NCBI GenBank assembly: GCA_044222185.1
Contig: JBGANV010000002.1
Location: 448,001 to 512,000 of the forward strand
DNA from: Planctomycetota bacterium
GTDB taxonomy: Bacteria; Planctomycetota; GCA-002687715; CAIWVZ01
Direction: 5' to 3'
DNA length: 64,000 nt
Numbering within the stretch: the first letter of the stretch is position 1; the number at the start of each line of letters is the position of its first letter. This document shows positions 5,128 to 19,700 of the stretch, piece after piece. Under the pieces are notes generated by a model. It worked only from the letters and a program-made list of their open reading frames with translations. It did no database searches and was not told the origin of the DNA. The position numbers were made by a program, and so were the translations under genes.

Positions 5128-5368
5128 CGAGGATGAGCGGGCCGCCACCCCAGTCCGAACGACTCTGGCTTCTACTGGACGGAGACCCTGGGCGACGGAG
5201 CGCCGCTCGAACCGCAGCGCATCGAGGACGAGCGGCCGGATCGCTGGACGACCGCAGCGAAGCGGAGGCGTCCGGTCCGTCCGACGTCGGGACGCAGCCG
5301 GCACACGAGGATCAAGCGCCCGCGATTGCGTAAGCGCGCGACGACCGCGCCATCACCCCAGTCCGAAC
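5078..5368. repeat. Imperfect direct repeats between convergent genes
   Basis: ~65-bp unit ACTGGACGGA.ACCC.GG..GACGGAGCGCCGCTCGAACCGCAGCG... at 5078-5144 and 5174-5238, degenerate third copy near 5244-5268; exact 15-mer CACCCCAGTCCGAAC at 5146-5160 and 5354-5368. Confidence 0.75.
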
Positions 5369-7410
5369 AACTTCTGCGTGTCGATGTGACGCACCCCGGC
5401 GCCGTTGGCGGTCGCCACCTCGACCATGTTCTCGGTTCCACCCGGCCCGTCACCGACGGCCCCGTTCCACAACGCGATGAGGACGACCGACGCCGCTGGG
5501 TCCGACAAACCATGGTGCAGGGTCCAGAGGTTGTTGCGATTCCAGATCGTGTACTGGGGTTTGTTCACGAGCCATGCGGGGAGGATCTTCGAGTCGCTGA
5601 GGATTCTCGGAGGTGAACAACGACAGATTGCGTCGAACCGTTCGACCCACCCGGGGCCCGAGTCGGCCACGGACTGCCGGATGTAGCTGTTGCGGTCGAG
5701 CGCGAGGAGAACCGTGGTCGGTATGCCGACCTCGCCGCAGACCTCGTGGAAGAGGATGTCGCCGCCGCTCGCTCCTCCCGAGAATCCGTGCACCGTCTGC
5801 CCTGCGGCTTTCGCCGTGCGCACGACCGCTTCGACCTGCTCCCGGATCGCGGAGCGGGCGACCCCCTCCATCGCGGCCGGGAATCTGGGCACCTTCCTTC
5901 CGGGTGCGTCGATGCGATGACCCGTGAAGACGATGTGGAGCTTGAGCTGTTGGGCGGCGGTGACCGGAATCGTTGCCGCGAGATCCACCGGTTCGGCACC
6001 GAGGCCTTTGAGTCCCGCGCGAGCCCGGTCAACCCGGACTCCGAGGTGAACGAAGATCGAGAGCTGGCGTGCGGCAGCAGACGGGTTGAAGCCCCGCGGC
6101 GCACTTTGGCCCGCCGGCGGTCTGGCGAGGTGCGCCGCGGCGGTGCGGTAGAGCGATCGCACGGACTCCGGCGTGGCGTCGCCGAAGGCTGCCGCCGCGT
6201 CGCCCCGGCTGAGCTCGATCCAGTCGTCGTTCGGATCCAGGGCGTGCGCGTGATCGAGCCCGACGGCGACGACGGCGGCGAGACGCTGGGCATCCTCGAG
6301 AATCTGCGTGGTTGCCGTCTGCGCAGCGTCGTCTCCGCCGTTGAGACTCGCCCAGAGGTCGGCCTGAGCGGCCGCAAGTCCCGCACGCAGTGAGAGCAGC
6401 GCCACGGCGTTGAGCGCCGCGAAGTAGTTGTTGAGGTTGGTCTTCGCACCCTCCGCGTAGGAATCGAGGGCTCGTTGCAGGCGGGCCGACTCGAGCGCGA
6501 GTCGCTGACGCTCGGGAAGCGTGGCGGCGGTTGCCCATTCGAGGATCCAGTCCGCCTTCTCGTTACTGCCCCGCAGCGCGAGGGTCTCGGATCGCTCCGC
6601 CGGTGTCAACGGCGACTGCAGCAGCCGCTCGAGGACGGCGTCCGATGCCGCGCGATCGCCTATCTTCTGGTCGATGGTCGCGAGCCGTTGAAGCGTCTCG
6701 ACGTCAGTCGGCCGGCGATCGCGAATCATCGTGTAGGTGCGCCGGGCATTGACGAGGTCGTTGATCTTGAACTGCGTTTCGGCCACGTGTCTCAGGCCGG
6801 GAATCGCCCAGCTCAGATCCGAAAGCTCGTCGGCAAACAGCGAGAGTCGAACCGTGTCGCGCGAGGTACGGGCATCCGCGACCTCGTCGAAAAAACTCGA
6901 ATCCGGGCGCACGTGGGCGGTTGGATCGAAGGACCCGAGCTCGGGCATCAGATCGTGAACCGGACTGTCCGTGCGTTCCGCCTGGACCGTCGCGAGGATC
7001 ACGTCCGCCAGATCGTCGACAGATCGGGCGGGTTCGACCGGCGAGTAGTCGAGGTAGCGGTCCGTGCGCAGGTCGAAAGGGACGTCGTCGCCCTTGCAGC
7101 GAATCAGAACCGTCGCGCGGTTGCGGAGCGCGTGGCGGATGCCCAGCTCGTAGTAGACGTTCGCGTTGTGGATCGACACGTCGGCGATGACGAGATCTGC
7201 GAGGAGCAGCTCCTGGAACATGTCACGCCGAATGCTGCCAGCTTGGAGGATCGGGATCGTCGTCGCGGCGAACACGCGCTGGGCCGACGCGCGCTCGAAC
7301 TTCCGAATCGCGGGCTGGATGAGCAGTGACTCGACCGCATCGAAGTCGACCTCGAGCTTCTGATCCGACGTCTTGCGGGATCCAAACGGGCGGACGATGA
7401 AGACGTGCAT
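5353..7410 (-). CDS. Multidomain protein: nucleoside 2-deoxyribosyltransferase/TIR-like N-terminus, TPR-like (MAP3K TRAF-binding/DUF4071-like) middle, SLOG-like C-terminus
   Basis: Start MHVFIVRPFG at 7410, one nt after the patatin stop; ADLVIADVSIHNANVYYELGIRHA..PFD motif; helical middle with NYFAALNA; C-terminal VFTGHRIDAPGR..PRFP, GGASGGDILFHE, LIALWNG..GDGPGGT typical of SLOG folds. Confidence 0.75.
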   Translation of the reverse strand: MHVFIVRPFGSRKTSDQKLEVDFDAVESLLIQPAIRKFERASAQRVFAATTIPILQAGSIRRDMFQELLLADLVIADVSIHNANVYYELGIRHALRNRATVLIRCKGDDVPFDLRTDRYLDYSPVEPARSVDDLADVILATVQAERTDSPVHDLMPELGSFDPTAHVRPDSSFFDEVADARTSRDTVRLSLFADELSDLSWAIPGLRHVAETQFKINDLVNARRTYTMIRDRRPTDVETLQRLATIDQKIGDRAASDAVLERLLQSPLTPAERSETLALRGSNEKADWILEWATAATLPERQRLALESARLQRALDSYAEGAKTNLNNYFAALNAVALLSLRAGLAAAQADLWASLNGGDDAAQTATTQILEDAQRLAAVVAVGLDHAHALDPNDDWIELSRGDAAAAFGDATPESVRSLYRTAAAHLARPPAGQSAPRGFNPSAAARQLSIFVHLGVRVDRARAGLKGLGAEPVDLAATIPVTAAQQLKLHIVFTGHRIDAPGRKVPRFPAAMEGVARSAIREQVEAVVRTAKAAGQTVHGFSGGASGGDILFHEVCGEVGIPTTVLLALDRNSYIRQSVADSGPGWVERFDAICRCSPPRILSDSKILPAWLVNKPQYTIWNRNNLWTLHHGLSDPAASVVLIALWNGAVGDGPGGTENMVEVATANGAGVRHIDTQKLFGLG

Positions 7411-7411
7411 G

Positions 7412-8590
7412 TCAGGGCTTCCCGAGGAACGAACCGAAGTGGGCGGGGTCGACCTGGGCGGCGAGCCGTTGCCCCACGTGTCGGAGGTCGTCCATGTGCT
7501 CGGTCGAATCGAGCTTGGCAATCTTCTCGGGGTTGATGTCGGGTCGCGCACCGATCTCCTTCAGTCCGGCGTTCGAGAGTTCGACGTCGTAGCGAATGTA
7601 TGTGAACGCGCGGCCTTGGTCCTTCGAAAGAGGAAGGACGGCGCCGAAGTCATCGCGGATGACGAGGTCCCCGACTTCGCGGTCGAGAGGGCGCCCATAG
7701 GTGCAACGTCCGATCGTGCGGCAGGCGAGATCCTGGTCGAACGCCGCCTGGTTCATGAGAGCCAGAAGTGTGTTGAGTGCATCGGCAGCGACGTTGTGAT
7801 CGGGGTCGTCGCCCGGAGCTCCGATGTGGGGTGCGCAGCCGGTGCCGATCGAAACGACGAGGAGGTTCTTCTCTCCGCGCGGCCACTCGAGGCGGTACAT
7901 GGGCTCGGTCGCCATGCGGTACATGACGAAGGCCGGGTTGTTGTAGGCGGTCGTGCCGCCGTCGACGAACCGGAAGGTCTTTCTCGTATCCCGCGGATCC
8001 CAGCTCACCGCCTCAGGCGGGAAGTAGATCGGCGCCGCAGTGCTCGCGCGGACGATCTGCCAGAGCGGAACCTGGAGATTGCAATCGGGCCGGTCGGGCG
8101 CGTTGTACTTCGCGGACGGGTTCGTCGAGAGCAGCCACGCCGAGTCGGTGGAGTGATTGCGCGTCACCACGAGCATCAGGCATTGGAGGTCTTGCGGGTG
8201 CAGGGTCGTGCGGGGTCCGAACACCTCCTGCAACTTCTCCTGAAGTCCGTCCTTCTCGTAGAGGCTCTTCCACCGTTCGAACAGGCTCCGCTTCTGGAAC
8301 ACCGCCTTGCCGAACTCCGCATAGAAGTCGCGCATGGCGGTCACCGACATGCCTCGCGCGAAGCCCGCCGCGAGGATCGCCCCCGTGCTCGTTCCAGCGA
8401 TGTAATCGAAGAAGTCGCACAGGCGTGTCTGCGGACCCCAGTTGTCCTGGATCAGCTTCTCGATGCGCATGAGCACTTCGAGCGTGAGCACTCCGCGAAT
8501 GCCGCCGCCGTCGAGTGCGAGCATCCGCCGCGGGCGCGGCGTGCTGTAACGGTCGGCAAGATGACCCCAGAGCTTCCAGTCCGTCTTCAT
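7412..8590 (-). CDS. Patatin-like phospholipase
   Basis: LALDGGGIRG oxyanion motif, GTSTG catalytic Ser, ASTAAPIYF, VDGG catalytic Asp, LLVVSIGTG; ATG at 8590 with GAGGGAG RBS. Confidence 0.93.
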   Translation of the reverse strand: MKTDWKLWGHLADRYSTPRPRRMLALDGGGIRGVLTLEVLMRIEKLIQDNWGPQTRLCDFFDYIAGTSTGAILAAGFARGMSVTAMRDFYAEFGKAVFQKRSLFERWKSLYEKDGLQEKLQEVFGPRTTLHPQDLQCLMLVVTRNHSTDSAWLLSTNPSAKYNAPDRPDCNLQVPLWQIVRASTAAPIYFPPEAVSWDPRDTRKTFRFVDGGTTAYNNPAFVMYRMATEPMYRLEWPRGEKNLLVVSIGTGCAPHIGAPGDDPDHNVAADALNTLLALMNQAAFDQDLACRTIGRCTYGRPLDREVGDLVIRDDFGAVLPLSKDQGRAFTYIRYDVELSNAGLKEIGARPDINPEKIAKLDSTEHMDDLRHVGQRLAAQVDPAHFGSFLGKP

Positions 8591-8721
8591 CGTCGTGACT
8601 CCCTCTTGTGCGCGCTCCGTGCATTCGTGGGAGAACCGGGTCGAAACCTGGAATGCTGCGGCGCGGCGAGGTCGTGATCCTACACGAGCACTGGGGGAGT
8701 CCGCGCCGGATCCCGCCCGCG

Positions 8722-9915
8722 TCACCGTCGCTCCGGCCCCATCGTCTCGACGGAGCCGGCGATCTCGGTCTCGGCTTTTTGCGGGCGCGAGCCGGCGCCG
8801 AGGCGGGGGCCCGAGATCCACGATGCGAGCGCGACGACGGCGAAGATCAGACTCATGATCCAGAAGCGGAGCACGACCTTCGTCTCGGCGACGCCCTGAT
8901 GCTGGAACCCGTGGTGCGCGGGAGCGCGGTAGAGGATCCGCTTGCCGATGCGAAGGATCCCGATCTGCTCCTGAATGAGGACGGAGAGCGCCTCGTAGAC
9001 GAAGATGGCGCCGACGATCAGGAACAGGAGCTCCTGTTTCGTGAGGACGGCCAGGGCCGCCAACGTCCCCCCGAGCGAAAGGGACCCGGTGTCACCCATG
9101 ATCACCTGGGCGGGGTAGCCGTTGAACCAGAGGAACCCGGTGGCAGCGCCGAGAAGCCCCGTGCAGTAGATCGCCAACTCCTCCATCCACGCATGGGCGG
9201 CCATGTCGCCGACGCCGCCGAGCATGTTCTTGCCGAGGATGATCCCGATGGCGCCGTAGACCGCGACCCCGAACGCCGCCGGCACGATGGCGAGGCCGTC
9301 GAGTCCATCGGCGAAGTTCACCGCGTTGCTGATCGCCATGAAGGCGACGAGGATCAGAATGCCGTACCCGAGGAACCCCAGGTCGGGGTGGAAGCCGAGG
9401 ATGGGCGTCGCCAGCGGGATGAAGAGCTTCGTGCGCTCGTCAGGCGAGAACGGCGACGTGCCGACGTTCAGGATCATCAACGCGAAGAAGAGACCGAACA
9501 GTGCCTGCGAGACCAGCTTGAACCGCCGGCCCAAGCCTCCGTCGGAGTGCTTGCGTCGCATCTTCAGGATGTCGTCCATGGCGCCGAGGCCGGCGAAGAA
9601 GCTCGTCGAGAGGAGGAGCAGGGGCGTGGGCCGGCTCCACAGATCGCACCAGAACAACGCGGAAAGCACGATGCCGAGAACGATGATGATGCCGCCCATG
9701 GTCGGCGTGCCGCTCTTGCTCGACGCGTATGCGTCCACGTACTCGCGAGGTCGATCGCGCAATCCGCGACGATAGAGCCCGGCGATCACGCGCGGTCCCA
9801 AGAGCCACACCACGAGGAACGCGGTGATGAACGCGGCGATGCAGCGAATCGAGGTGAGGGGCGCGATCTTCGCGTGCTGGCTCTCCATCACCAGCTTGTA
9901 GAGCATGTAGATCAC
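8722..9915 (-). CDS. mraY: Phospho-N-acetylmuramoyl-pentapeptide transferase
   Basis: KSGTPTMGG, DD in MDDILK, SNAVNFADGLDGL, FNGYPAQVIMGDTGSL and APAHHGF motifs; about 10 TM segments; GTG start overlaps upstream TGA (GTGA). Confidence 0.96.
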   Translation of the reverse strand: MIYMLYKLVMESQHAKIAPLTSIRCIAAFITAFLVVWLLGPRVIAGLYRRGLRDRPREYVDAYASSKSGTPTMGGIIIVLGIVLSALFWCDLWSRPTPLLLLSTSFFAGLGAMDDILKMRRKHSDGGLGRRFKLVSQALFGLFFALMILNVGTSPFSPDERTKLFIPLATPILGFHPDLGFLGYGILILVAFMAISNAVNFADGLDGLAIVPAAFGVAVYGAIGIILGKNMLGGVGDMAAHAWMEELAIYCTGLLGAATGFLWFNGYPAQVIMGDTGSLSLGGTLAALAVLTKQELLFLIVGAIFVYEALSVLIQEQIGILRIGKRILYRAPAHHGFQHQGVAETKVVLRFWIMSLIFAVVALASWISGPRLGAGSRPQKAETEIAGSVETMGPERR

Positions 9916-12900
9916 GCCGGCTCTCCCATGGTCGCGGAGACCTGATCGAACTTGCGCCGCACGCGGAGGAGGTCTTCCTTGAGCTTGAACCGCGGCGTGA
10001 ACGAGTCGCAGGTGACGAGCACGTCATCCACCAGTTCGAGCAAGGCGCGTGCATCGAGGACGACGCCGCGCTTGTGGAGTTCTTCGTAGGCGCAGACGAC
10101 GGCGTCGCGCACTTGCCAGTTCGGGTGATAGTGCAGCTTCTTCAACACGGGCAGGATCGCGGGCTCTCGCGCCAGCAGGCCGATGGCGCGGACGGCATTC
10201 AGCGCCGTCTCGAAGCAGCGCGACTCGGTGAGGCCGATCAGCGCCGCGAGCGCCTTGTGCCGCGTCGCGTCGCTGAGGAACGGCGCGAGGTTGCCGAGGA
10301 CACGCGCGGCGCCCGCGCGCACCTCGAAGTAGGGATCGTTGAGCGCGGTCACGAGGGCGTTTGCCGTCACTTCGTCGGGGTCTCCGAGCTGCCCCAAGGC
10401 GACGACCGCGTTGCGTCTCACGAATCCCGGCTCGCGGAAATCCGCTCCAAGGAAGCGGAGGTAGAACGGCATCGCTTCGCGATTGGTCACGAGCTGCGCG
10501 AGCTTGGGTCGGGTCACGCGGAGCTGGAGCAGCCCCGCGAGCTTGCAGCCGATGTTGCGCTCCTGCCAGCGCGGCCGACTGAGCAGCTGCGTCACGCGCT
10601 TGTTCAGGTTGAACGTGAGCGCGAGCTGGGGGTTCTTCTCGACCCACTTCAGCAACTCACCTGCCGAGAGCCACTGGGGAACGACGGGCCGCACCTCGCG
10701 TGGCCGAGTCGGCTCGTGATCGTGGCTCTTGCGGTTGAAGCGAGCCAGCAGCTCCTCGATCTGCTCCGACTCCATGAGGAACGCCGTCCCCGCGAACGCG
10801 AACCCACCGAAGAAGCACGGCGTGAGAAGCTGGAGCGCGCGGTTGACGATCGTGCCGACGCCACCGGGGAACGATTCGAAGTGCCGTACCGCCGCCAGGC
10901 TCATGGCTGCGGCGATCGCCGCCGCGCAGGTCGCGAACGACGTCTGGAAGATCGTCGGCCAGAGATCCTTGAACCGGAATGCCGCGTCCTCTTCCCGCAA
11001 GTCGCGGTTGAGCAGCCACAGCCGGACGACCGCCGCGATGCTGAACGTCACGGTCGACGAAAGCGCGATGCCCGCGAACCCGAACGGAGTCTTCACGAGT
11101 GCCAGCGAGAGCGACACGTTGATGACGAGCGCCACGAGATTCGTCAGCGTCCCCGCGCCCATCTGATTGCGCGCCGCGAAGAACCGACCGGAGAGTGCCA
11201 CGAGGCCCCACCCCGGCAGTCCGATGGAGTAGGCCTGCAAGGCGGTCATCACGTAGGGCGCGCGCTCGGCCGTGAGCTTCCCGTATTGGAGCAACCCGCG
11301 AACGATCGGCTCGGCGAGGATCACCATGGCGACGGCCATGGGGACGAGGAGGAAGATCGTCCAGTTGATGCCGTTCACGATCATGCGCCGCGTCCACGCC
11401 TTGTCGCGGACCGCCATGCCTTCGCTGAGTTCCTTCAGCACGACCGTGTTGATCGTCTGCGCCACGAGGGCGAACGGAAGCAGGAACAACTGCCTGCCGA
11501 AGTCGAGCGCGCTGATCATCCCGTCCGACAGCGCGGACGCGATGCTGACGTCCACGATCTCGCCGGCCTTCGAGATCGTGGTGTCCGCCAGGATGTTCGG
11601 CGTGACGCGCCCCACGCGGCGGATGCCCGGCGTGCGCATGTCGAGACCGCGGGGGAATCGCAGTCCGTGGCCCTTGCGGATCTCCGGTCCGAACAGCGGC
11701 GGGAGCTGCACGAGGATCTGCCCCACGCCGCCTGCGAGCACGCCCCACCCGAGCGCCTGGATGCCGAAGCGGTCGTAGAACGACACGCCGGCGATCATGC
11801 CCACGCTGAACATGATCGACGCGTTCGCCGGCAGGGCGAACCGATTGAACGCCTTCAGCACGGCGGCGATGACGGCCGCGGCGGAGATGAGGATCAGGTA
11901 CGGGAACATGATCCGCGTGAGCTTGACCGCGTCGTCGACCATGCCCTTCGCGCGGAACCCCGGAGCGATGGAGTCGATCCACAGCGGCGTCGTGAGGATC
12001 GCGCCGACGGTGACGACGGCGCTCCCGAGGAGGGTGAGCTTCATCACGGTCGAGAAGAGGCGGTTCGCCTCGTCCCTGCGACCCGAGCGGAAGAGCTGAA
12101 CGAACGTCGGCAGGAACGCGCTGTCGACGGCCACCTCGGCGAACACGGCGCGGAAGAAGTTGCTGACCCGCAACCCGAACGTCATGAGGTCGGTCGCCTG
12201 ACCGAGGCCGAGCGTGCCGCCGGAGATCGCCACGCGGGCGAATCCCATCATGCGCGACGTCATGGTGCCGAACGCCGTCGCGAAGAGCTTCTTGCCCACG
12301 GCCATGGGGCGATCTTCGCGTTCGACCTCACGGTCCAGCACGCGGAACGTGAAGCGGTTCGGACCGATGGAGACGACGTCCTCCGGCGAAAGACGCGTGC
12401 GTTGCGCCACGGGCTTGCCGTTGATCGAGACCTGTCCGCGGCGCGGCACGATCCAGAACTCGGCGACGCCGCCGACGCGCGCCTCCTGCAGGAACGCCCG
12501 TTCGCCGTCGCCCCGATCGAGCAGGCGCACGTCCGCGAGCGCGCCCGCCGAGATGACGTTGTTGTTGAACCGCAGCTCGTGCGTGATTCCCGCTTCGTCG
12601 AGCAGCAATCCGACCTTCGCCGTGACGATGCGCTTGTAGATCACGGGCTCGCCGCCCGCGAGCGACTCGAGGACGTCGGCGTTGCGGCCCAAGGCCTCGG
12701 GGATGACCATGCGATGAGCCTGGCGGCCCATCTGGAGCAGGAGCTCCTCGTCGTCGAGGAGGTCGACGATGCGACGCCCCAGCTGATCGCCGTAGACGCG
12801 CGTGACGACACGGCCCTCCTCGTCCGCCGGCTCTTCGTAGAAGATCTCGGCGGCGCCCGCGTCGGCGAAGGCGAGCGCGTTCTCGAGCTGATGCTGCCCG

Positions 12901-13820
12901 GGCGCATCCGACTTCGGGATCAGGATCGAGGGCTTCCCGATGGCGCCCAGCTCCATGATCGTTCCCGCACCCGACCGCGCGACGACGAGGTCGGCGAGCG
13001 CGTAGACGTCCTCGATGTCCTCGATGAACCGCTTGCAGACGTAGCGGCCCGGGATCTCGGGCGCGAGGCCCATCTGCTTCAACCGTTCGCAGGTGTCGTC
13101 GAAGGCGTTGTATTCGGGGCTGTTGAAGAGCCCCGTCGAGTGGATGATCGCGACCTTCTCGTGGCGGAGCAGCGTCTTCAGCGCTTCCACGATGCCGCGG
13201 TTGATCGAGCGCGAGCCCATGCTTCCGCCGACGACGAACACGCACTTGGATTCGGGTGCGATGCCGTATTTCAACCGCGCCGCGTCGCGGGACGCCGTGC
13301 CGATGCGGCTGCGAACGGGATACCCGGTGTGGATCGCCTTCGGAGGCGGCAGTTCGCGGAGCGTGCGCTCGAACGTGATGCCCACGCGGGTGGCGAAACC
13401 TGCCAGCAGACGGTTGGCCGCCCCCGGTCGGGCGTTCTGTTCGTGGACGAAGATCCGCCGCTTGAGGATCGCCGCCGCGAGCACGGGCGGCACGGAAACG
13501 TACCCACCCGTTGCGACCACGAGATTGGGGCGGAACCGGACGATGATCCACAGCGATTGGAGGATTCCCGCGAGCACTCGCACGAGCATCGTCGCGAATC
13601 GGATCGGTCGCCGCGGCGACACGTGCTGCGCGGTGAGCACGCCCTTGAACGCGATGCCGTGTTGCTCGACGCGTTTCTCGTATCCGCCGGCGGAACCGAC
13701 GTAGAGAATGCGAGCCGACGGATCACGGCGCCGGATCTCGCCGATCATGGCGAGATTCGGTGTGACGTGTCCGCCCGTGCCACCGCCCGTGAAGAGGTAG
13801 CGTCTCCCCGTTTGGGTCAC
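9912..13820 (-). CDS. murG-murJ: MurG glycosyltransferase - FHA-like domain - MurJ/MviN lipid II flippase - HEAT-repeat fusion protein
   Basis: One uninterrupted frame. MurG motifs FTGGGTGGH, TGGYVS.P, HEQNA.PG.ANR, GGSMGS, RSGAGT..E...GKPSILIP...HQ..NA; FHA-like SINGKPV...LSPEDVVSIGPNRFTF; MurJ motifs SRMMGFAR, NFFRAVFAE..VDSAFLP, RIMFPYL, multiple TMs; HEAT-like VRRNAVVALG, DPYFEVRAGAARVLG, NWQVRDAVV. Start placed at GTG 13820 (ORF track extends to 13967). Confidence 0.88.
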   Translation of the reverse strand: MTQTGRRYLFTGGGTGGHVTPNLAMIGEIRRRDPSARILYVGSAGGYEKRVEQHGIAFKGVLTAQHVSPRRPIRFATMLVRVLAGILQSLWIIVRFRPNLVVATGGYVSVPPVLAAAILKRRIFVHEQNARPGAANRLLAGFATRVGITFERTLRELPPPKAIHTGYPVRSRIGTASRDAARLKYGIAPESKCVFVVGGSMGSRSINRGIVEALKTLLRHEKVAIIHSTGLFNSPEYNAFDDTCERLKQMGLAPEIPGRYVCKRFIEDIEDVYALADLVVARSGAGTIMELGAIGKPSILIPKSDAPGQHQLENALAFADAGAAEIFYEEPADEEGRVVTRVYGDQLGRRIVDLLDDEELLLQMGRQAHRMVIPEALGRNADVLESLAGGEPVIYKRIVTAKVGLLLDEAGITHELRFNNNVISAGALADVRLLDRGDGERAFLQEARVGGVAEFWIVPRRGQVSINGKPVAQRTRLSPEDVVSIGPNRFTFRVLDREVEREDRPMAVGKKLFATAFGTMTSRMMGFARVAISGGTLGLGQATDLMTFGLRVSNFFRAVFAEVAVDSAFLPTFVQLFRSGRRDEANRLFSTVMKLTLLGSAVVTVGAILTTPLWIDSIAPGFRAKGMVDDAVKLTRIMFPYLILISAAAVIAAVLKAFNRFALPANASIMFSVGMIAGVSFYDRFGIQALGWGVLAGGVGQILVQLPPLFGPEIRKGHGLRFPRGLDMRTPGIRRVGRVTPNILADTTISKAGEIVDVSIASALSDGMISALDFGRQLFLLPFALVAQTINTVVLKELSEGMAVRDKAWTRRMIVNGINWTIFLLVPMAVAMVILAEPIVRGLLQYGKLTAERAPYVMTALQAYSIGLPGWGLVALSGRFFAARNQMGAGTLTNLVALVINVSLSLALVKTPFGFAGIALSSTVTFSIAAVVRLWLLNRDLREEDAAFRFKDLWPTIFQTSFATCAAAIAAAMSLAAVRHFESFPGGVGTIVNRALQLLTPCFFGGFAFAGTAFLMESEQIEELLARFNRKSHDHEPTRPREVRPVVPQWLSAGELLKWVEKNPQLALTFNLNKRVTQLLSRPRWQERNIGCKLAGLLQLRVTRPKLAQLVTNREAMPFYLRFLGADFREPGFVRRNAVVALGQLGDPDEVTANALVTALNDPYFEVRAGAARVLGNLAPFLSDATRHKALAALIGLTESRCFETALNAVRAIGLLAREPAILPVLKKLHYHPNWQVRDAVVCAYEELHKRGVVLDARALLELVDDVLVTCDSFTPRFKLKEDLLRVRRKFDQVSATMGEPA

Positions 13821-14088
13821 GAACCTGTTGACCTTTCGTTCCCGCGCGGACACCGCCAGGGCCGCGCTCCACTTCACCGTTCCCCACCGCCAGGGAAGGC
13901 GAATTCGAGAGCCGAAACGCACGCGAACGGCCGGGCAGAGAGTAGACGCCGCACCCCTGGGAAACAACGCGCCTGCAGGTGGGAAATCACGGCCCTTGCC
14001 TCATTCGTTCGATCGGGTGTAATCGCCACGATCCAGGCCCAACTGATCTGTCGCATCAGAGTCCCGGCTTGCGACGGAGTCCGCTCCC

Positions 14089-16752
14089 ATGAGATGGAAG
14101 TTCCTGACGCCAGCGTTCCTGTCGTTGTTCGTGGCACCGCTCCAGGCGCAGATCCCACCGTCCGTCCAGCTGCAGGCGGCGCAGGCGTGGTCGGGAACCG
14201 CGGGAAGCGCGAACGCCGGGTGGTCCATCGCGTCCGGCGGTGGCGTGATCCTGACGGGATCGCCGGGTGGCAGTCCGCCGGGACCCGGCGTCAACTCCTG
14301 GACAGGCGGGCCGCCGCCCCTCGGCCCGACGGGCGCGGGGACCGTGCAAGTGCGCGCGAGCGTCGGCGGTCAGGTGCTCAACACGTTGCTCGGTGAAGCC
14401 GGGGGCGATCGCTTCGGCTTCGTCGTGTGCAACATCGGGGACGTGGATGGGGATACGGCCCCAGACTTCGCCATCGGAGCTCCGTTCGGCGGCGGAGGTA
14501 CGGGCCGCGTCTATGTCTATGCGAATGCCGACCTTCAGGGGCCTTTCACGCCTTCGCCCTTGTTCGTGTTGTCGGGGTTCCTTCCCAACGATCGCTTCGG
14601 GGTGTCGGTGTGTGGGATCGGTGACATCACCGGCGACGGCCTCGACGAGTTCGTCGTTGGCGCGCCCAAGGCTGGGCTCTTCCACGTGGGCCAGGCCTAC
14701 GTCTTCAGTCCCCAACCCGGAGGAGCTCAGCTTCTCGCCCCGGTGATGAATGGCGAGGCGGTCCAACCCGTGTTCGGCGGAAGTCTGGCGGCGGTGGGGG
14801 ATCTGGACGGTGACGGTCGCTCGGAGATCGCCATCGGCGCATCGGGATCGGGCGACACGCCACAGGCGACGACGGGAGCGGGTCGCGTGTACATCTTCCG
14901 GGGGTCGAACCGGACGTTGCTCGGCCAGATCAACGGACCCGTCACCGGAGGCCTGTTCGGGTACAGCATCTCTCGCCTCGGCGACGTCAGCGTCCCCGCT
15001 GACGGAATCCCCGACTTCGCGGTTGGAGCGCCCCGTTCGGGATCCCTGACCGCGGACGATTCGGGGCGGGTGTTCATCTACTCGGGCGCGACACGTGCCC
15101 TGATGAGAACCTTCAGTCAGGCGACACCGGGCGACTTGCTCGGCGCCGCGGTCGTCGGGACGGGGAACGCCGACGCGGACGCGCAGCTCGAGGTGGCCAT
15201 CGGGTCGCCGGGTTCGGGCCTCGACGGACGCCCCGGTCGCGTGCTCCTCGTTGGCGCCAGCGATGGCGTCGTGAAATCCACCGTGTCCGGCGAACGGCCG
15301 AACGACCGGATGGGAATGAGCATCGGCGTCCTCGACGACATCAATTTCGACGGTCGCCCGGAGCTGCTCGCGGGAAGCCCGAACCACGACATGGCGGAGA
15401 ACGTGGCCAATCGCATGGACGATGGCCGCGGGATGGTCTTCGTCTTGCCTCGAACCCTCTACGTCTCCGCCACCGCGGGGCCTGGCGGGAACGGCTCCTA
15501 CGCGACGCCTTACGCCTCGATCGGGATGGCGATTGCGTCGGCGCGCCACGGCGACACGATCTTCGTCGGGCCGGGAACCTACGCCGAATCGCTGTTTCTC
15601 AACGTCAACGTCCGCCTCGTGGGGGCGGGCACGACCCCGACGATCATCGATCCGGGCCCCAACGCACTGTTAGGCGCCCTCTCCGTCGGCATGGGCACCG
15701 ACGACACGTGCCTCCTGGAAGGGTTGACCTTCCGACAGGTCCTCGCCACGGCCGGCGGGGCGACGATCCGGAACTGCCGCATCGGGCGGCTGAACGTCGT
15801 GCGCGGTTACCTGGGATCGACCTACGTCGACCGCGTCGACATCGTTCGGCTCGATCATTGCACGATCGACACGTTGCACGTCGAGGGCCCGATCCTTCCA
15901 ACGTCGCTGGGAGACCCCTATCCGCTCCAGGTCCAGATGGACCACTGCAGCATGCGCCCCATGGGCACGGGTCTCGCGCCCATCTTCACGCGTCTCGCGG
16001 AACTGACCCTGACCAATTCCATCATCTGGGACCCGACGTCGTCGGTCGACATCCTCGCGCCGACGGGGAGCCCGGTGACGACGCCCGGCCCCGAGGGGTC
16101 CCTCGTCCGGTCGCGGTATTGCGTGATGGCCTACAACACCGTCGGGTTCGATCCGACCAACGTCGTGGGCGATCCGAAGTTCGCGAACGCGTCGGCGGGG
16201 GATCTTCGACTGCGCATCGACTCGCCCGCCATCGACGCCGGCGATCCCGCGGCCCCGTTGGACCCCGACGGATCGCGAAGCGACGTCGGCGCGTCGTACG
16301 CTCCTCCCGACCACCTGCCGGGGTCGGCGGACCGCGTCTACCTTGCGACGGCGCTGAACGCGTTGCCGCTCGGCGCGGCCGGGTCGGACATCCATCCCGC
16401 CCAGCCCGGCAACGCGGCGACCTTCTCGGTCTGGACGACGAACACGGCCCTCCTCGGAAGTCCCATGCTCGTCCTGGCGCAGGGATACCCGGCTCTCAAT
16501 TCGATTCCGCCGACGCCGGGGCTTCCCGCGTTCATCCGACTGAATCCCTACGTGCTGCCGTACTTCGTCCTCTTCGGCACGGCGTCGCCGATCGGGCTTC
16601 CGGTCCTGTCGGGGACGCCGACGACCTTCGCGCTGGGCATCCCGCCCGGGCTCGCGGGGATCACCATTCGGGTCCAGGCCTTCGCCGTGTCACCGCTGGC
16701 GCTGGCAGCCGGCATCGCCGCATCTTCGGCCCACGAGTTCGTCGTCAACTGA
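14089..16752 (+). CDS. Secreted FG-GAP (integrin-alpha propeller) + beta-helix protein with conserved C-terminal domain
   Basis: Signal peptide ending APLQA-Q; repeated FG...GDxDGDGxxDxAIGAP; YVSATAGPGGNGSYATPY..I..AI...GDTIFVGPGTY beta-helix cap; DLRLRIDSPAIDAG motif; C-terminal PPGLAG..IRVQ...SAHEFVVN. Confidence 0.85.
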   Translation: MRWKFLTPAFLSLFVAPLQAQIPPSVQLQAAQAWSGTAGSANAGWSIASGGGVILTGSPGGSPPGPGVNSWTGGPPPLGPTGAGTVQVRASVGGQVLNTLLGEAGGDRFGFVVCNIGDVDGDTAPDFAIGAPFGGGGTGRVYVYANADLQGPFTPSPLFVLSGFLPNDRFGVSVCGIGDITGDGLDEFVVGAPKAGLFHVGQAYVFSPQPGGAQLLAPVMNGEAVQPVFGGSLAAVGDLDGDGRSEIAIGASGSGDTPQATTGAGRVYIFRGSNRTLLGQINGPVTGGLFGYSISRLGDVSVPADGIPDFAVGAPRSGSLTADDSGRVFIYSGATRALMRTFSQATPGDLLGAAVVGTGNADADAQLEVAIGSPGSGLDGRPGRVLLVGASDGVVKSTVSGERPNDRMGMSIGVLDDINFDGRPELLAGSPNHDMAENVANRMDDGRGMVFVLPRTLYVSATAGPGGNGSYATPYASIGMAIASARHGDTIFVGPGTYAESLFLNVNVRLVGAGTTPTIIDPGPNALLGALSVGMGTDDTCLLEGLTFRQVLATAGGATIRNCRIGRLNVVRGYLGSTYVDRVDIVRLDHCTIDTLHVEGPILPTSLGDPYPLQVQMDHCSMRPMGTGLAPIFTRLAELTLTNSIIWDPTSSVDILAPTGSPVTTPGPEGSLVRSRYCVMAYNTVGFDPTNVVGDPKFANASAGDLRLRIDSPAIDAGDPAAPLDPDGSRSDVGASYAPPDHLPGSADRVYLATALNALPLGAAGSDIHPAQPGNAATFSVWTTNTALLGSPMLVLAQGYPALNSIPPTPGLPAFIRLNPYVLPYFVLFGTASPIGLPVLSGTPTTFALGIPPGLAGITIRVQAFAVSPLALAAGIAASSAHEFVVN

Positions 16753-16781
16753 CGTCCGGTCCGCCAATGGAGGGTGAAACG

Positions 16782-19700
16782 ATGAACGCCACGTGTCGCA
16801 TCGGTTGCATCGTCGCAGCCTGCTTCCTGTCGTGCGCGACGTGCGTCATGGCGCAGTTCGAAGACTGCAGTCCGGCGGCGACGCTCGTCTTTCCGGGGAT
16901 CAACCCGGGTCCGCCGTTCGGAGGCGACGGCACCTCTTTCACCAATTCGGGCATGAGCGCGTCGGTCGGGTTCAGCAGTCCGTGCGGCGCCACGAACGAC
17001 GACGGGTGGTTCCGTTATGTGGCGACGCGCACGGGGACGACGGTCATCGACACGGCGACGCCGCTCGGGTTCAGCGTCCTCGCCCTCGGCGACACCGTCA
17101 TCGACGTCCACACCGCCTGCAGCCAGGCGGCTCATCTCGCCTGCAATGGCGGGCTCGTCCAAAGTGGCGGGTTGAAGGCCCGCGTGTCGTTCCAGGCCAC
17201 GGCCGGAGTGACGTACTACGTGCGGATCTCGTCGCCGTCGATCGCGGCGGCCGACTTCTACTTGACGATCGCGGAACACCCGGCCGTCGTGAACGACGAG
17301 CCGTATGCACCGCTGACGCTGCTCGCGGGGCTGAACCCGGGCGGCGGCGCCGGGAACGGAGGCTTCTATGCCATGGCCGGCGCCACCCCCACGCCGTCCC
17401 TGGATGCCATATGCCCGATTTCGCCCGCCGTCCCGGTCCCCCCGCCGCCCTCGAACGACGTGTGGTTCACGTTCACCGCGACGACGACGGAAACGACCGT
17501 CTTCGACACCTGCGAGGGAGTCATGCCCCTCGGCGGCGCCGCCACGCTCACGCTGTTCTCTCTCGGGGGTGCCACCACCTCGTACGTCGCCTGCAACCAG
17601 GATGCGTGTCCGGGCTGCGGCGGCGGGGCGCGCCTCACGGCATCGCTCAACGCGGGCACCACCTACCTCCTGCGCGTGGCCTCGGCTCCCGTCGCGCCGC
17701 CCGTCCCGTTCCGGGTGCGCGTCACGGGCTCGGGGGTGAGCAACGGGCCGGCCTTCTCGCCCTTCGAAGGCAGGACGATCGTCGCTCCTCCCGCGGCGTC
17801 GCACGCGGACGTCAACTGGACCGTGCTCGGGGATGCGAACCAGGACGGAACGCCCGACCTCGTCGTCGGCATCCCGGGTGATGCAACCAATGGATGGGGG
17901 GCTGGCCGCGTCGTGGTGCTGTCGGGGTCGAACGGGGCACAGCTGAGTGCGTTCGCCAATGCGCCGGCCGGGGCTCGGCTGGGGGCTTCGGTCTGCTGCG
18001 TGGGCGACGTGGGGAACGACGGCGTCCCCGACTTCGCCGTCAGCGCGCCTTTCCTCGCGGGGGCGACGCCCGCAGTGGCTGGGGAGGTGTTCATCGTCTC
18101 CGCGACGGGTCAGCAGATCGGAACCTGGGCTACGTTCGCCAAAGCCCCATTCGCCTACGGTGGAGTCTGGGGTTCGGGCCTCGCGGCTGTCGGCGACTGG
18201 GACCTCGACGGTGTCATGAATCTCTGCGTGACGGATTGGGGCGAGGCCGGCACGTCCGTTCGAACGCCTCTCTACGTCATTGGCGATCGCAACGGCGACG
18301 GCGTGGACGACGTGGCGCGCTTCCGGATTCCGTCGGGGTCCGCGAGCGCCTTCCTCGCGACGCAAAGCGGGACGGTCGAGAGCATCCCGTACCTCTTCCT
18401 CGGATCCCCGTGGCCCGTCACGATCCCGAACACGCTCGTCGGATTTCCGACGCAGGTTTGTGCCGCGGGGCGCATCGACTCGGATGCGATCTCCGATTAC
18501 CTGCTGGGGATTCCCGGTGACAACACCACGGGGTCGCTCGCCGGCAAGGTCGTCGTGGTATCGGGGGCGACCCATGCCTTCGTCACGCAGTTCCTCGGCG
18601 CGAACGCCGGTGACCGGTTCGGCACCGCCGTCGCCGCGGTTGGCGACTTCAATTTCGACGGGGTGCCCGATTTCGCGATCGGCGCGCCGTACGACGACAC
18701 GAACGGAAACGATGCGGGCAGCGTCACCGTCGTCTCCAGCAGCACCGGCCAGGTGATCCAGAAGTTCTTCGGCGACCTTCCCGGTGATCGCTTCGGCTGG
18801 TCGCTGCATCGCGCGGATGCGCCGGCGCGCCCCGGTCGAACGCGGCTGTTCGCGTCGGCGAACCCCGTTCTCGCGCAGCGGGCGCCGTACGGACGCTTCC
18901 TGGGCTCGGATCGAACGGTCGTTCAGGGCGACAGCGCGAACGACGAATGCGGTTACTCGGTGGCCATCGTTCCCGACGCGGATGGCGACGGACGGAGCGA
19001 CCTCATCGTCGGCATCCGGAAGGAAGAGGTTGGAAGCCTGACGGACGCAGGCGTCGCGCGGCTCGTTTCGGGAAGCACCGGCGCGACGATCCGCCAGTGG
19101 AACGGAACGGCCTCCTTCGAGCAGTTCGGCCAGACGGTCGTGCTGGTCGGGGACATCGATCATGACGGGACGCGGGACGTGGCCTTCGGAGCACCCCACG
19201 CGTCCCCGGCGGGATCCGGGTCCAACTCGGGCCAGGTCAAGGTCGTCTCGGGCGCGACGGGGCAGCTTCTCAGGACGTTCAACGGACTCGCCGCGGGAGG
19301 CTGGTTCGGCTTCGACATCGCCGATGCGGGCGACGTCGATGGCGACGGAACGGCCGACATCGTTTCCGGCGCCCAGTTCCACGATCTGCCGGGTCTGACG
19401 GACGCGGGGGTGGTGCGGGTGCATTCGGGCGCGACGGGCGCCGTGATCCACCAATGGAACGGGACGGTCGCCGGGGGGAAGCTGGGTATCTCGCTTGCAG
19501 GCGTCGGCGACGTGGACGGAGACGGGAGAGCCGACGTGGCCGTCGGAGCCAGTTCCGACGGCACGTTTGGCACCGCCGCCGGCCGGGTCTTCGTGTTCTC
19601 CGGTGCGACCGGCGCGATGATCCGCGATCTTCACCCCGCGGGCGCGAACGCCGAGTTCGGATACAGCCTCGCTCCGGCGGGCGACCTCGACCGCGACGGT

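What the first reader, a model, noticed from the sequence alone, without database searches (positions are those of the whole stretch)
8722..13820. MurG-FHA-MurJ-HEAT single-chain fusion translationally coupled to mraY: a compact lipid II synthesis and flipping unit
Seen: one stop-free frame of ~1300 codons carries MurG motifs (about 13820-12650), an FHA-like domain (about 12610-12330), a full MurJ/MviN membrane domain (about 12305-10750) and HEAT-like repeats (about 10580-9950). Its TGA overlaps the GTG of mraY, and no other dcw genes (murD/E/F, ftsW) flank it. Established: MraY makes lipid I, MurG makes lipid II and MurJ flips it; these are normally separate genes. Inference: the three consecutive membrane steps may be physically channelled, with cytoplasmic interaction domains for regulation or scaffolding. 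I do not know of a described MurG-MurJ fusion.
Basis: partly seen in the sequence, partly recalled or inferred. Interest (0 to 1): 0.88.

Follow-up and report, generated by a model that had tools for sequence, protein, structure and literature searches.

The report
Fused lipid II synthase-flippase gene
One long gene in an uncultured planctomycete joins the enzyme that makes the cell-wall building block lipid II to the protein that flips it across the membrane, and sits directly in front of the gene for the preceding enzyme, so three normally separate membrane steps appear to be tied together.

Summary
Window 9912-13820 (- strand) is one stop-free gene of 1302 codons. It encodes MurG, a 110-residue FHA-fold domain, a full MurJ and a 270-residue HEAT-type solenoid. 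Its TGA overlaps the GTG of mraY (GTGA, 9915-9912). It holds the only murG and murJ found in a 93.8%-complete genome.

It is not an artefact. The same single-frame architecture is full length in 17 of 23 species genomes of one uncultured class of Planctomycetota. Contigs from two other studies bridge all four junctions without indels, and 34 of 40 variants are synonymous. It was not seen in 144 Planctomycetota genomes of other classes.

The main new point concerns the C-terminal solenoid, which is a specific family rather than generic HEAT. It also occurs alone, as MurG-HEAT (Thermodesulfobacteriota, Acidobacteriota, Myxococcota) and as a reversed MurJ-MurG-HEAT (Acidobacteriota). In 109 of 109 loci with downstream sequence, mraY follows it directly.

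My reading is a tethered MraY-MurG-MurJ unit with the HEAT domain as the MraY-side adaptor. This is inferred: the predicted MraY-HEAT complex got only weak support. The FHA domain lacks the phosphothreonine-binding residues, and the MurJ Arg270 equivalent is not conserved. Full-text searches found no description. I rate it a new variant of natural Mur fusions.

The parts
9912..13820 (-). Single gene for MurG - FHA-like - MurJ - HEAT (1302 codons plus TGA). The open frame extends up to 13967; an alternative GTG lies at 13877.
   Evidence: The family alignment is nearly gapless from residue 51 to about 1340 of the 1351-residue frame. Contigs of other runs show no indels.
12699..13808 (-). MurG module (GT28, residues 54-423 of the 1351-residue frame).
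   Evidence: Pfam and NCBIfam. Aligns to P. aeruginosa and E. coli MurG structures 3s2u and 1f0k. Motifs GGTGGH, GGYVS, HEQN, GGSxG, SGAGT..MEL and HQ..N are invariant or nearly so in 25 of 25 family members.
12282..12662 (-). FHA-fold domain (residues 436-562) without canonical phosphothreonine-binding residues.
   Evidence: Profile against PDB sequences hits FHA domains: 3hx1 2.8e-4, Ki-67 3.5e-3, EmbR 7.8e-3. Yop-YscD_cpl is matched in 6 of 12 members, best 2e-6. AF2 model pLDDT 84.7. All Foldseek rows shown are FHA domains or proteins that contain one; 3po8 E 6.4e-6, TM 0.75. Residue counts.
10746..12293 (-). MurJ module (residues 559-1074), aligned along the full length of MurJ.
   Evidence: TIGR01695 268.4 bits, above its cut-off. 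Aligns to residues 5-498 of the 511-residue MurJ chain 7waw. Equivalents of R18, R24, D39, R52 and E57 are present in 25 of 25 members. The Arg270 equivalent is not conserved.
9915..10736 (-). C-terminal HEAT-type alpha-solenoid (residues 1078-1351), a member of a specific family tied to MurG and MraY.
   Evidence: HEAT_2 1.2e-21. AF2 pLDDT 90.8, all helical. Foldseek hits are HEAT and armadillo repeat proteins. hhalign to the C-termini of P0030 (prob 99.1) and P0102 (prob 99.4).
9912..9915 (-). GTGA: stop of the fusion overlapping the start of mraY.
   Evidence: A 4-nt ATGA or GTGA overlap is present in 9 of 12 loci of the class; the other three have gaps of 1, 3 and 7 nt.
8722..9915 (-). mraY (397 codons plus stop).
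   Evidence: TIGR00445 241.3 bits, above its cut-off. It is the only mraY above cut-off in the genome.

Best explanation
A single conserved gene makes a polypeptide of roughly 140 kDa (estimated from 1302 residues) that carries four modules:
- the peripheral lipid II synthase MurG;
- a rigid FHA-fold spacer;
- the 14-helix lipid II flippase MurJ;
- a cytoplasmic HEAT-type solenoid.

mraY is translated from the same message by stop/start overlap.

Shown:
- The gene is real, is the only murG and murJ found in the genome, and is conserved across a whole class of Planctomycetota.
- The MurG motifs and most of the MurJ cavity residues are kept.
- The topology is consistent. If MurJ here has both termini in the cytoplasm, as I recall for E. 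coli MurJ, then MurG, the FHA domain and the HEAT domain all lie on the cytoplasmic side.
- About 7 residues separate the last FHA strand from the first MurJ-aligned residue. This ties MurG next to TM1, which with TM8 forms the lateral portal through which lipid II is thought to enter.

Inferred:
- The fusion keeps MurG at the entry of MurJ, so that new lipid II is captured at once and in 1:1 stoichiometry.
- The HEAT solenoid is the adaptor that holds MraY, or something acting with MraY, so that lipid I is made beside MurG.
- The FHA domain acts as a structural spacer or protein-docking module, not as a classical phosphothreonine reader.

My confidence by part: about 0.95 that this is a real conserved single-chain fusion; about 0.6 that MraY, MurG and MurJ are functionally coupled; about 0.4 that the HEAT domain binds MraY.
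For: Architecture:
- Domain matches.
- The fusion is the only murG-like hit above 61 bits and the only murJ hit in the 7.08 Mb, 93.8%-complete genome.

Conservation:
- 21 of 23 species genomes of the class (a single order with four families) have a match. 17 are full length in one frame, 4 are cut by contig ends, and two of those four still span the MurG-MurJ joint.
- 27 full-length clusters at 43-65% identity in the protein collection.
- The alignment is nearly gapless, and the FHA and HEAT parts are conserved about as well as the enzymes.

Independent assemblies:
- Contigs of 4 runs from 2 other studies bridge all four junctions. No indels are listed. 34 of 40 listed variants are synonymous and none creates a stop.

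mraY:
- mraY follows directly in 12 of 12 loci of the class. A 4-nt overlap is present in 9 of 12.

HEAT family and its link to mraY:
- The HEAT domain is homologous to the C-termini of MurG-HEAT and MurJ-MurG-HEAT proteins.
- mraY lies directly downstream, on the same strand, of the HEAT-encoding end in:
  - 9 of 9 other Planctomycetota loci with a stand-alone HEAT gene;
  - 6 of 6 Acidobacteriota MurJ-MurG-HEAT loci with downstream sequence;
  - 5 of 5 and 77 of 77 MurG-HEAT loci with downstream sequence.
- murJ follows mraY in 13 of those 78 loci and precedes murG in 2.
- The genome's remaining dcw-like cluster (bPBP, two Mur ligases, SEDS) has no mraY or murG hit.

Predicted MraY + HEAT complex:
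- ipSAE 0.52, 0.52 and 0.55 in three runs. The best of 3 controls scored 0.00.
- Partner pLDDT at least 82; the runs agree in at least 73% of contacts.
- Tool verdict: weak support. A pass at 0.60 or under was reached by 7 of 80 solved complexes and by both of the 2 (of 110) mismatched pairs that passed.

Portal: entry of lipid II through the portal between TM1 and TM8 is taken from passages of PMC6465408.
Against: - No binding, activity or transcript was measured.
- The complex prediction is only weak support. By the tool's own calibration such a pass is more often wrong than right unless the prior was good.
- The murG module scores 207.3 bits, below NCBIfam's equivalog cut-off of 250.25.
- MurJ substrate triad:
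  - The Arg270 (E. coli) / Arg255 (T. africanus) equivalent is not conserved. The aligned column is V, T, I, L or Q. The neighbouring column is Arg in only 10 of 25 members, the window included, and Met or Leu in 15.
  - The window has Val at the Asp25 position, where 23 of 25 members have Glu or Asp.
- The canonical FHA Arg, Ser, His and Asn positions read Arg in 1 of 25, Ser in 4 of 25, His in 0 of 25 (Ala in 23) and Asn in 0 of 25 (Gly in 25). Regulation through phosphothreonine in the classical way is therefore unlikely.
- Gene neighbourhood among related genomes is not independent evidence. It also fits mere co-expression.
- In E. coli the passage of lipid I and II between separate MraY, MurG and MurJ was explained by affinity gradients alone (PMC9046198, abstract and discussion).
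- In Planctopirus limnophila, murJ, mraY and other peptidoglycan genes are dispensable in the laboratory (PMC10632474, passages).
Confidence: 0.6

Rival explanations
1. Co-expression only. The fusion and the overlap with mraY fix 1:1(:1) stoichiometry and stability, as proposed for other Mur chimeras, with no direct hand-over of lipid I or II. The HEAT and FHA domains are structural ballast or serve localisation.
For: The Mur chimera survey lists several fusions of non-consecutive enzymes (MurG-MurC, MurC-Ddl, MurD-FtsW) and argues for stoichiometry and stability (PMC10214165, passages). The affinity-gradient model needs no complex (PMC9046198). The complex prediction gave only weak support.
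Against: Here the fused and adjacent enzymes are consecutive. The same trio recurs in different orders and degrees of fusion in several phyla. Linkers are short and conserved, and the accessory domains are conserved about as well as the enzymes.
Confidence: 0.25
2. The HEAT solenoid docks a partner other than MraY. Candidates are the Mur ligases that supply UDP-MurNAc-pentapeptide, a SEDS/bPBP synthase, or a cytoskeletal or polar landmark. Its position before mraY would then reflect operon history only.
For: HEAT and armadillo solenoids are general protein-binding modules (fold matches). The title and abstract of PMC6420597 describe MurG as a scaffold for cytoplasmic Mur enzymes (search listing). 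In two Planctomycetota genomes the stand-alone HEAT gene lies between ftsW and mraY.
Against: mraY is the one constant neighbour in 109 of 109 loci, while ftsW, murJ and the other neighbours vary. MraY + HEAT scored 0.52 against 0.00 for the controls (weak support).
Confidence: 0.2
3. The polyprotein is cut after translation, or an internal start is used, so that the cell holds separate MurG(-FHA) and MurJ(-HEAT) proteins.
For: Nothing direct. No protein or RNA data were available: no RNA holder was listed.
Against: No stop, frameshift or spacer appears in 17 full-length genomes. The joints are short, conserved and without indels.
Confidence: 0.08
4. Assembly or sequencing artefact, or a decaying pseudogene.
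For: None found.
Against: Class-wide conservation. Contigs from other studies bridge all four junctions. 34 of 40 variants are synonymous. It is the only murG and murJ found in the genome.
Confidence: 0.01

Closest known systems
Natural Mur chimeras (MurE-MurF, MurC-Ddl, MurC-MurB, MurG-MurC, MurD-FtsW, MraY-MurG), surveyed in PMC10214165 (passages read)
   Same: Two peptidoglycan-precursor enzymes encoded as one polypeptide and conserved within particular phyla. The same arguments about stoichiometry, assembly and substrate passage apply.
   Different: No MurG-MurJ chimera is listed there; that survey excluded unidentified species. This one joins a peripheral enzyme to a 14-helix transporter and carries two non-enzymatic domains (FHA fold, HEAT solenoid). 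Its partner gene mraY is coupled by overlap rather than fused.
MurG-HEAT proteins (about 650-720 aa) of Syntrophobacteraceae, Acidobacteriota and Myxococcota, including cultured Desulfacinum infernum DSM 9756, and the reversed MurJ-MurG-HEAT (about 1160-1220 aa) of Acidobacteriota. These are database entries with automatic names only.
   Same: Homologous HEAT domain (hhalign prob 99.1 and 99.4) with shared sequence blocks. mraY lies directly downstream. MurG sits in the same polypeptide.
   Different: They have no FHA domain. MurJ is absent, is a separate neighbouring gene, or is fused on the other side of MurG. In the window's family, FHA-MurJ lies between MurG and the HEAT domain.
Mycobacterial MviN (MurJ, Rv3910) with its cytoplasmic pseudokinase domain, bound by the FHA domain of FhaA (PDB 3oun title; PMC11898655 passages)
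   Same: A MurJ flippase with an extra cytoplasmic domain, working with an FHA-fold domain. FhaA FHA structures (3po8, 3oun) are among the best fold matches of the window's middle domain.
   Different: There the FHA domain is on a separate protein and reads a phosphothreonine. Here it is fused in front of MurJ and lacks the canonical binding residues. There is no pseudokinase domain here.
YscD/EscD-type FHA domains (Pfam Yop-YscD_cpl)
   Same: This is the Pfam family that most members of the middle domain match best (6 of 12, best E 2e-6). From memory, these are FHA folds beside a membrane anchor that lack phosphopeptide-binding residues.
   Different: All scores are below Pfam's gathering threshold of 33.2 bits for the window protein. 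There is no link to secretion systems here.

Membership tests
MurG (GT28; TIGR01133) | Two GT28 halves (Glyco_transf_28 and Glyco_tran_28_C) above Pfam thresholds | tested here: met
   106.6 bits (cut-off 26.2) and 89.4 bits (cut-off 22).
MurG (GT28; TIGR01133) | NCBIfam equivalog cut-off | tested here: not met
   207.3 bits against 250.25. In the control search only 9 of 14 reference genomes pass. It is the best GT28 hit in the genome by 150 bits.
MurG (GT28; TIGR01133) | Glycine-rich loops and donor-binding motifs (their roles are recalled from the E. coli MurG literature, not read here) | tested here: met
   GGTGGH, GGYVS, HEQN, GGSxG, SGAGT..MEL and HQ..N align to 1f0k and 3s2u. They are invariant or nearly so in 25 family members.
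MurJ (MOP flippase; TIGR01695) | Equivalog cut-off and full-length match | tested here: met
   268.4 bits against 235.55, model positions 4-505 of 506. Aligns to residues 5-498 of the 511-residue chain 7waw.
MurJ (MOP flippase; TIGR01695) | Cavity residues Arg18, Arg24, Asp39 (essential per PMC6465408) and Arg52 (recalled) | tested here: met
   Present in 25 of 25 family members.
MurJ (MOP flippase; TIGR01695) | Second arginine of the substrate triad (Arg270 in E. coli, Arg255 in T. africanus) | tested here: not met
   The aligned column (826) is V, T, I, L or Q. The neighbouring column 825 is Arg in 10 of 25 members (window included) and Met or Leu in 15. A one-residue alignment shift cannot be excluded.
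FHA domain | Beta-sandwich FHA fold | tested here: met
   AF2 model pLDDT 84.7 with eight strands called. All Foldseek rows shown are FHA domains or proteins that contain one; best 3po8 E 6.4e-6, TM 0.75 on the target. The family profile hits FHA chains at 2.8e-4 to 7.8e-3.
FHA domain | Pfam gathering threshold (FHA or Yop-YscD_cpl) | tested here: not met
   Window protein 15.6 bits against 33.2. 6 of 12 members match Yop-YscD_cpl at E of 1 or less, best 2e-6. 1 of 12 matches FHA.
FHA domain | Phosphothreonine-binding Arg, Ser, His and Asn (roles recalled; columns taken from the Ki-67 alignment) | tested here: not met
   Arg column: Arg in 1 of 25. Ser column: Ser in 4 of 25. His column: Ala in 23 of 25. 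Asn column: Gly in 25 of 25.
HEAT repeats | Pfam HEAT_2 threshold and alpha-solenoid fold | tested here: met
   77.2 bits against 27.7 when scanned alone. Model pLDDT 90.8 with 15 helices. Fold matches are HEAT and armadillo repeat proteins.
MraY (TIGR00445) | Equivalog cut-off | tested here: met
   241.3 bits against 192.05. It is the single copy above cut-off in the genome.
Natural Mur chimera (fused peptidoglycan-precursor enzymes) | One reading frame without stop across both enzymes, conserved in related species | tested here: met
   17 full-length single-frame copies in 23 species genomes. Contigs from other studies bridge the junctions.
Natural Mur chimera (fused peptidoglycan-precursor enzymes) | A single polypeptide is actually made and both activities are present | not testable with these tools
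   No RNA or protein data were available. No RNA holder was listed.

The most novel reading that the evidence does not exclude
The C-terminal solenoid defines an unrecognised accessory factor of lipid-linked peptidoglycan precursor synthesis, spread over several phyla. It would be an adaptor that physically docks MraY to MurG and, where fused or adjacent, to MurJ, forming a membrane metabolon for lipid I synthesis, lipid II synthesis and flipping. The planctomycete MurG-FHA-MurJ-HEAT protein would be its most condensed natural form, a ready-made single chain for capturing the MurG-to-MurJ hand-over structurally.
Probability: 0.35. Interest if true: 0.85.

Novelty: new variant of a known kind. 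Interest (0 to 1): 0.72.

Why it matters
How lipid I and lipid II pass between MraY, MurG and MurJ is still argued. One view is free diffusion along affinity gradients; the other is a physical complex.

A natural, class-wide fusion of the synthase to the flippase, with mraY coupled by overlap, says that selection favours keeping these steps together in at least some lineages. So does an independent fusion in reversed order in another phylum.

It offers a single-chain object for cryo-EM and for reconstituted synthesis-and-flipping assays.

The HEAT family found here always lies just before mraY, and cultured hosts carry it (Desulfacinum). It is a concrete, testable candidate for a missing adaptor in an antibiotic-target pathway.

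It also shows how an uncultured class of Planctomycetota has taken mraY and murG out of the dcw cluster.

Tried and rejected
- Artefact or pseudogene: rejected.
- A classical phosphothreonine-reading FHA domain: rejected on the residue counts.
- A MurG-FHA protein in another class of Planctomycetota (G070, a match running to query residue 553 through 2 TGA): it proved to be murG followed by murC.
- MurG-HEAT in family f49 of Planctomycetota (open frames of 657-678 aa): the upstream part is an M48 peptidase gene in another frame, and the HEAT gene stands alone.
- Shorter proteins carrying the middle domain: none at E of 0.01 or less among 2603 word-sharing candidates. This search needs shared 5-residue words, so it says little about distant relatives.
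- Protein atlas for the middle domain: FHA clusters at 0.79, below the 0.9 that the tool treats as more than a lead.
- Fold search of the HEAT model: only designed or generic HEAT and armadillo repeats, no functional lead.
- RNA evidence: no RNA holder was listed, so expression and transcript structure remain untested.
- Joints, table 5 (three skips in run X5 with sides of 20-22 letters): I treat these as other organisms or repeats, as the tool warns. They were not followed up.
- No trees of the HEAT or MurG domains were built. The order of the fusion events is left open.
- Amj or other alternative flippases were not searched for in the genome.
- Papers' supplements were not opened. The supplementary figure and tables of PMC10214165 could list rarer chimeras that I did not see.
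- Literature: no natural MurG-MurJ fusion and no HEAT link to MraY or MurG was found (0 papers contain 'MurG-MurJ' or 'MurJ-MurG'). In the rows listed, no paper had 'HEAT repeat(s)' together with the other terms. The library lacks most subscription journals.

Full report
**What is there**

The window has about 67% G+C. On the minus strand an open frame runs from 13967 to 9912, 1351 codons.

The family alignment is conserved only from residue 51 onward. The codon at residue 46 is GTC, which cannot start a gene. The GTG at 13820 (residue 50) matches the N-termini of the relatives. A public gene call begins at the GTG at 13877 (1321 aa).

Pfam and NCBIfam place the following:
- the two GT28 halves of MurG at residues 58-381;
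- MurJ at 559-1074 (268.4 bits, over the equivalog cut-off);
- HEAT repeats in the last 270 residues.

The next gene is mraY at 8722-9915 (241.3 bits, over its cut-off). Its GTG shares three bases with the fusion's TGA.

The neighbours are a patatin-like phospholipase and a TPR-S protein downstream. Two FG-GAP proteins lie upstream on the other strand. There are no dcw genes.

**The middle domain**

In the window protein only a sub-threshold Yop-YscD_cpl match appears (E 0.02).

Three further tests support an FHA fold:
- A profile of 12 family members finds FHA domains among solved structures: Slr1951 2.8e-4, Ki-67 3.5e-3, EmbR 7.8e-3.
- 6 of 12 members match Yop-YscD_cpl, best 2e-6.
- The AlphaFold model (pLDDT 84.7, all beta) retrieves only FHA domains or proteins that contain one in the rows shown. 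The best are FhaA of M. tuberculosis (3po8, E 6.4e-6, TM 0.75 on the target) and 3oun, the FhaA FHA domain bound to the intracellular domain of Rv3910, the mycobacterial MurJ.

So the fold is FHA. The positions that bind phosphothreonine in canonical FHA domains are not kept, however. Their roles are recalled; the columns come from the Ki-67 alignment. In 25 family members:
- the Arg column has Arg once;
- the Ser column has Ser four times;
- the His column is Ala in 23;
- the Asn column is Gly in all 25.

I read it as a degenerate FHA fold used as a rigid spacer or docking module.

**Is the gene real?**

It holds the only murJ match in the genome. It is also the only murG-like match above 61 bits. 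The genome is 7.08 Mb in 16 contigs and 93.8% complete.

The class to which the genome belongs holds 23 species genomes in one order and four families:
- 21 have a match.
- 17 carry the whole architecture in one open frame at 43-59% identity.
- 4 are cut by contig ends, and two of these still span the MurG-MurJ joint.
- 2 genomes, 86% and 90% complete, have none.

The large protein collection holds 27 full-length clusters at 43-65% identity. Those that carry an organism name are labelled Planctomycetota bacterium. Two more distant clusters (P0108, P0254; 34% identity along the whole length) have the same domain order.

The 25-sequence alignment is almost free of gaps. The FHA and HEAT parts are conserved about as well as the enzymes.

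Contigs of four runs from two other studies carry near-identical DNA. Single pieces bridge the MurG/FHA, FHA/MurJ, MurJ/HEAT and fusion/mraY junctions, and no insertion or deletion is listed. Of 40 listed variants, 34 are synonymous and none makes a stop.

Among 144 Planctomycetota genomes of other classes, no listed match spans both enzymes. The 111 unlisted matches are the weakest ones.

**Are the enzymes intact?**

MurG aligns to the P. aeruginosa and E. coli structures. Its glycine loops and donor-site motifs are invariant or nearly so in the family. The NCBIfam equivalog score (207.3) is nevertheless below the cut-off (250.25).

MurJ aligns along its whole length to solved MurJ chains. 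Equivalents of Arg18, Arg24, Asp39, Arg52 and Glu57 are present in 25 of 25 members.

Two departures must be told:
- The second arginine of the proposed substrate triad has no conserved counterpart. This is Arg270 in E. coli and Arg255 in T. africanus, called essential in PMC6465408 (passages). The aligned column is V, T, I, L or Q. The column before it is Arg in 10 of 25 members, the window included, and Met or Leu in 15.
- The window has Val where 23 of 25 relatives have Glu or Asp, at the Asp25 position.

**The C-terminal solenoid is a specific family tied to MurG and MraY**

The model is a confident all-helical solenoid (pLDDT 90.8). It resembles HEAT and armadillo repeat proteins in general.

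A search that started from one odd hit showed more. That hit was P0030, whose domains run in the order MurJ, then MurG. The search found a family of about 1160-aa MurJ-MurG-X proteins in Acidobacteriota and many MurG-X proteins of about 650-720 aa.

Profile comparison shows that X is homologous to the window's C-terminal domain: probability 99.1 and 99.4, E 5e-19 and 8e-22, with shared blocks such as RNxGxKLxG, GFxRRN, DPYFEVR and TxxxFxPxF.

A profile search of 1.84 billion representatives gave 132 proteins at E of 1e-30 or less. This count includes some giant multi-repeat HEAT proteins. Ten sampled single-domain hits were MurJ-MurG-HEAT (1), MurG-HEAT (5) and truncated MurG-HEAT (4).

Named records place MurG-HEAT in Syntrophobacteraceae, Acidobacteriota and a Myxococcota MAG. 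The Syntrophobacteraceae include the cultured Desulfacinum infernum DSM 9756 and D. hydrothermale DSM 13146.

In Planctomycetota outside the class, 9 of 144 genomes have a stand-alone homologue of about 230-270 aa.

**The constant neighbour**

Wherever downstream sequence exists, mraY follows the HEAT-encoding end directly on the same strand:

| Architecture and group | Loci with mraY downstream |
|---|---|
| MurG-FHA-MurJ-HEAT, this class | 12 of 12 |
| Stand-alone HEAT, other Planctomycetota | 9 of 9 |
| MurJ-MurG-HEAT, Acidobacteriota | 6 of 6 |
| MurG-HEAT, found with P0102 | 5 of 5 |
| MurG-HEAT, found with P0181 | 77 of 77 |

- In two of the nine stand-alone loci the order is ftsW, HEAT, mraY.
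- For the Acidobacteriota fusion a seventh examined locus ends at the contig edge, and four short loci were not examined.
- The 78th locus is cut by its contig end.
- That is 109 of 109, though many of these genomes are kin and are not independent.
- In 13 of the 78 loci murJ comes right after mraY, and in 2 it precedes murG.
- Within the class, the stop and start overlap by four bases in 9 of 12 loci. They are 1, 3 or 7 bases apart in the other three.

As I recall the canonical dcw order, mraY lies upstream of murD, ftsW and murG, so murG-then-mraY is not the usual arrangement. In this genome the remnant cluster on another contig (bPBP, two Mur ligases, SEDS) has neither an mraY nor a murG hit.

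**How it most likely works**

The topology fits. The MurJ module matches the solved MurJ chains over their whole length. I recall that E. coli MurJ has both termini in the cytoplasm. That places MurG, the FHA domain and the HEAT domain on the cytoplasmic face.

The linkers are short and conserved:
- About 13 residues link MurG to the first FHA strand.
- About 7 residues link the last FHA strand to the first MurJ-aligned residue.
- About 25-30 less conserved residues link MurJ to the solenoid.

MurG is thus held next to TM1 of MurJ. With TM8, TM1 forms the portal through which lipid II is thought to enter (PMC6465408).

I infer three things:
- The chain keeps the lipid II synthase at the mouth of the flippase.
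- Overlapping translation supplies MraY in step.
- The solenoid is the piece that holds MraY, or something acting with it.

The one direct test I could run was a predicted MraY-HEAT complex with family alignments:
- It scored 0.52, 0.52 and 0.55, against 0.00 for the best of three controls.
- Partner pLDDT was at least 82, and the runs agreed in at least 73% of contacts.
- The tool rates this weak support. A pass at 0.60 or under was reached by 7 of 80 solved complexes and by both mismatched pairs that passed.

Binding is therefore a hypothesis with a reasonable prior. It is not a result.

**Against over-reading**

- Work on the separate E. coli proteins explains precursor passage by affinity gradients, without a complex (PMC9046198, abstract and discussion).
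- Other Mur chimeras join non-consecutive enzymes, which argues for stoichiometry or stability as sufficient reasons to fuse (PMC10214165).
- In Planctopirus limnophila, murJ and mraY can be deleted (PMC10632474).
- No transcript or protein evidence exists for this gene.

**Novelty**

Full-text searches found no paper with the terms MurG-MurJ or MurJ-MurG (0 occurrences). In the rows listed, none linked HEAT repeats with MraY, MurG or the dcw cluster. None described such a fusion in Planctomycetes.

The survey of Mur chimeras does not list it, but it left out unidentified species, and I did not see its supplements. The proteins sit in public databases under automatic names such as MurJ or glycosyltransferase.

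I file it as a new variant of a known kind, natural fusions of peptidoglycan-precursor enzymes. Alongside it comes a broader, apparently undescribed HEAT family that always precedes mraY.

Noticed in passing
window 7412-8821 (-) and 5353-7551 (-): A patatin-like phospholipase gene (Pfam 1.9e-27) starts right after mraY on the same strand, followed by a TPR-S protein. The longest patatin frame overlaps the end of mraY by about 100 bases, so its true start is probably further down. Whether it belongs to the same operon, or is conserved in relatives, was not checked.
   Followed up: no
window 14089-16752 (+) and 15708-20585 (+): Two large FG-GAP repeat proteins (887 and 1625 codons as longest frames, partly overlapping in different frames) are transcribed divergently from the fusion gene.
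   Followed up: no
own genome G000: C7:132848-138016, C10:145352-147213, C4:136433-139913: A remnant dcw-like cluster (bPBP, two Mur ligases, SEDS) with no mraY or murG hit. There is also a second bPBP-SEDS pair and a block of three Mur-ligase genes elsewhere.
   Followed up: partly
L020 / L030 (G027:C74) and L029 (G066:C66): In two genomes of another family of Planctomycetota a 224-229-aa stand-alone homologue of the HEAT domain lies between ftsW and mraY. In G027 a Mur-ligase C-terminal domain lies upstream of ftsW.
   Followed up: partly
window 11490-11495 (residues 825-826) and 12231-12233 (residue 579): The MurJ module departs from the proposed Arg24-Asp25-Arg255 substrate triad. There is no conserved arginine at the Arg270/255 position in the family, and the window has Val at the Asp25 position.
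   Followed up: partly
own genome G000: C7:714667-715473, C1:2052895-2053488, C7:827158-827616: Three weak GT28-like matches (60, 44 and 34 bits), one of them inside an open frame of 1178 aa. These are probably other glycosyltransferases and were not examined.
   Followed up: no
L101-L135 (Acidobacteriota loci): An unfused three-gene cluster, murG-HEAT then mraY then murJ, occurs in 13 loci. The order murJ then murG-HEAT then mraY occurs in a Desulfobacterales MAG and a Myxococcota MAG. These look like stages between separate genes and the two kinds of fusion.
   Followed up: partly
proteins P0108 and P0254 (1310 aa): A divergent branch with the same MurG-middle-MurJ-HEAT order: 34% identity to the window protein along the whole length, and a middle domain only weakly like the FHA profile (hhalign prob 87).
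   Followed up: partly
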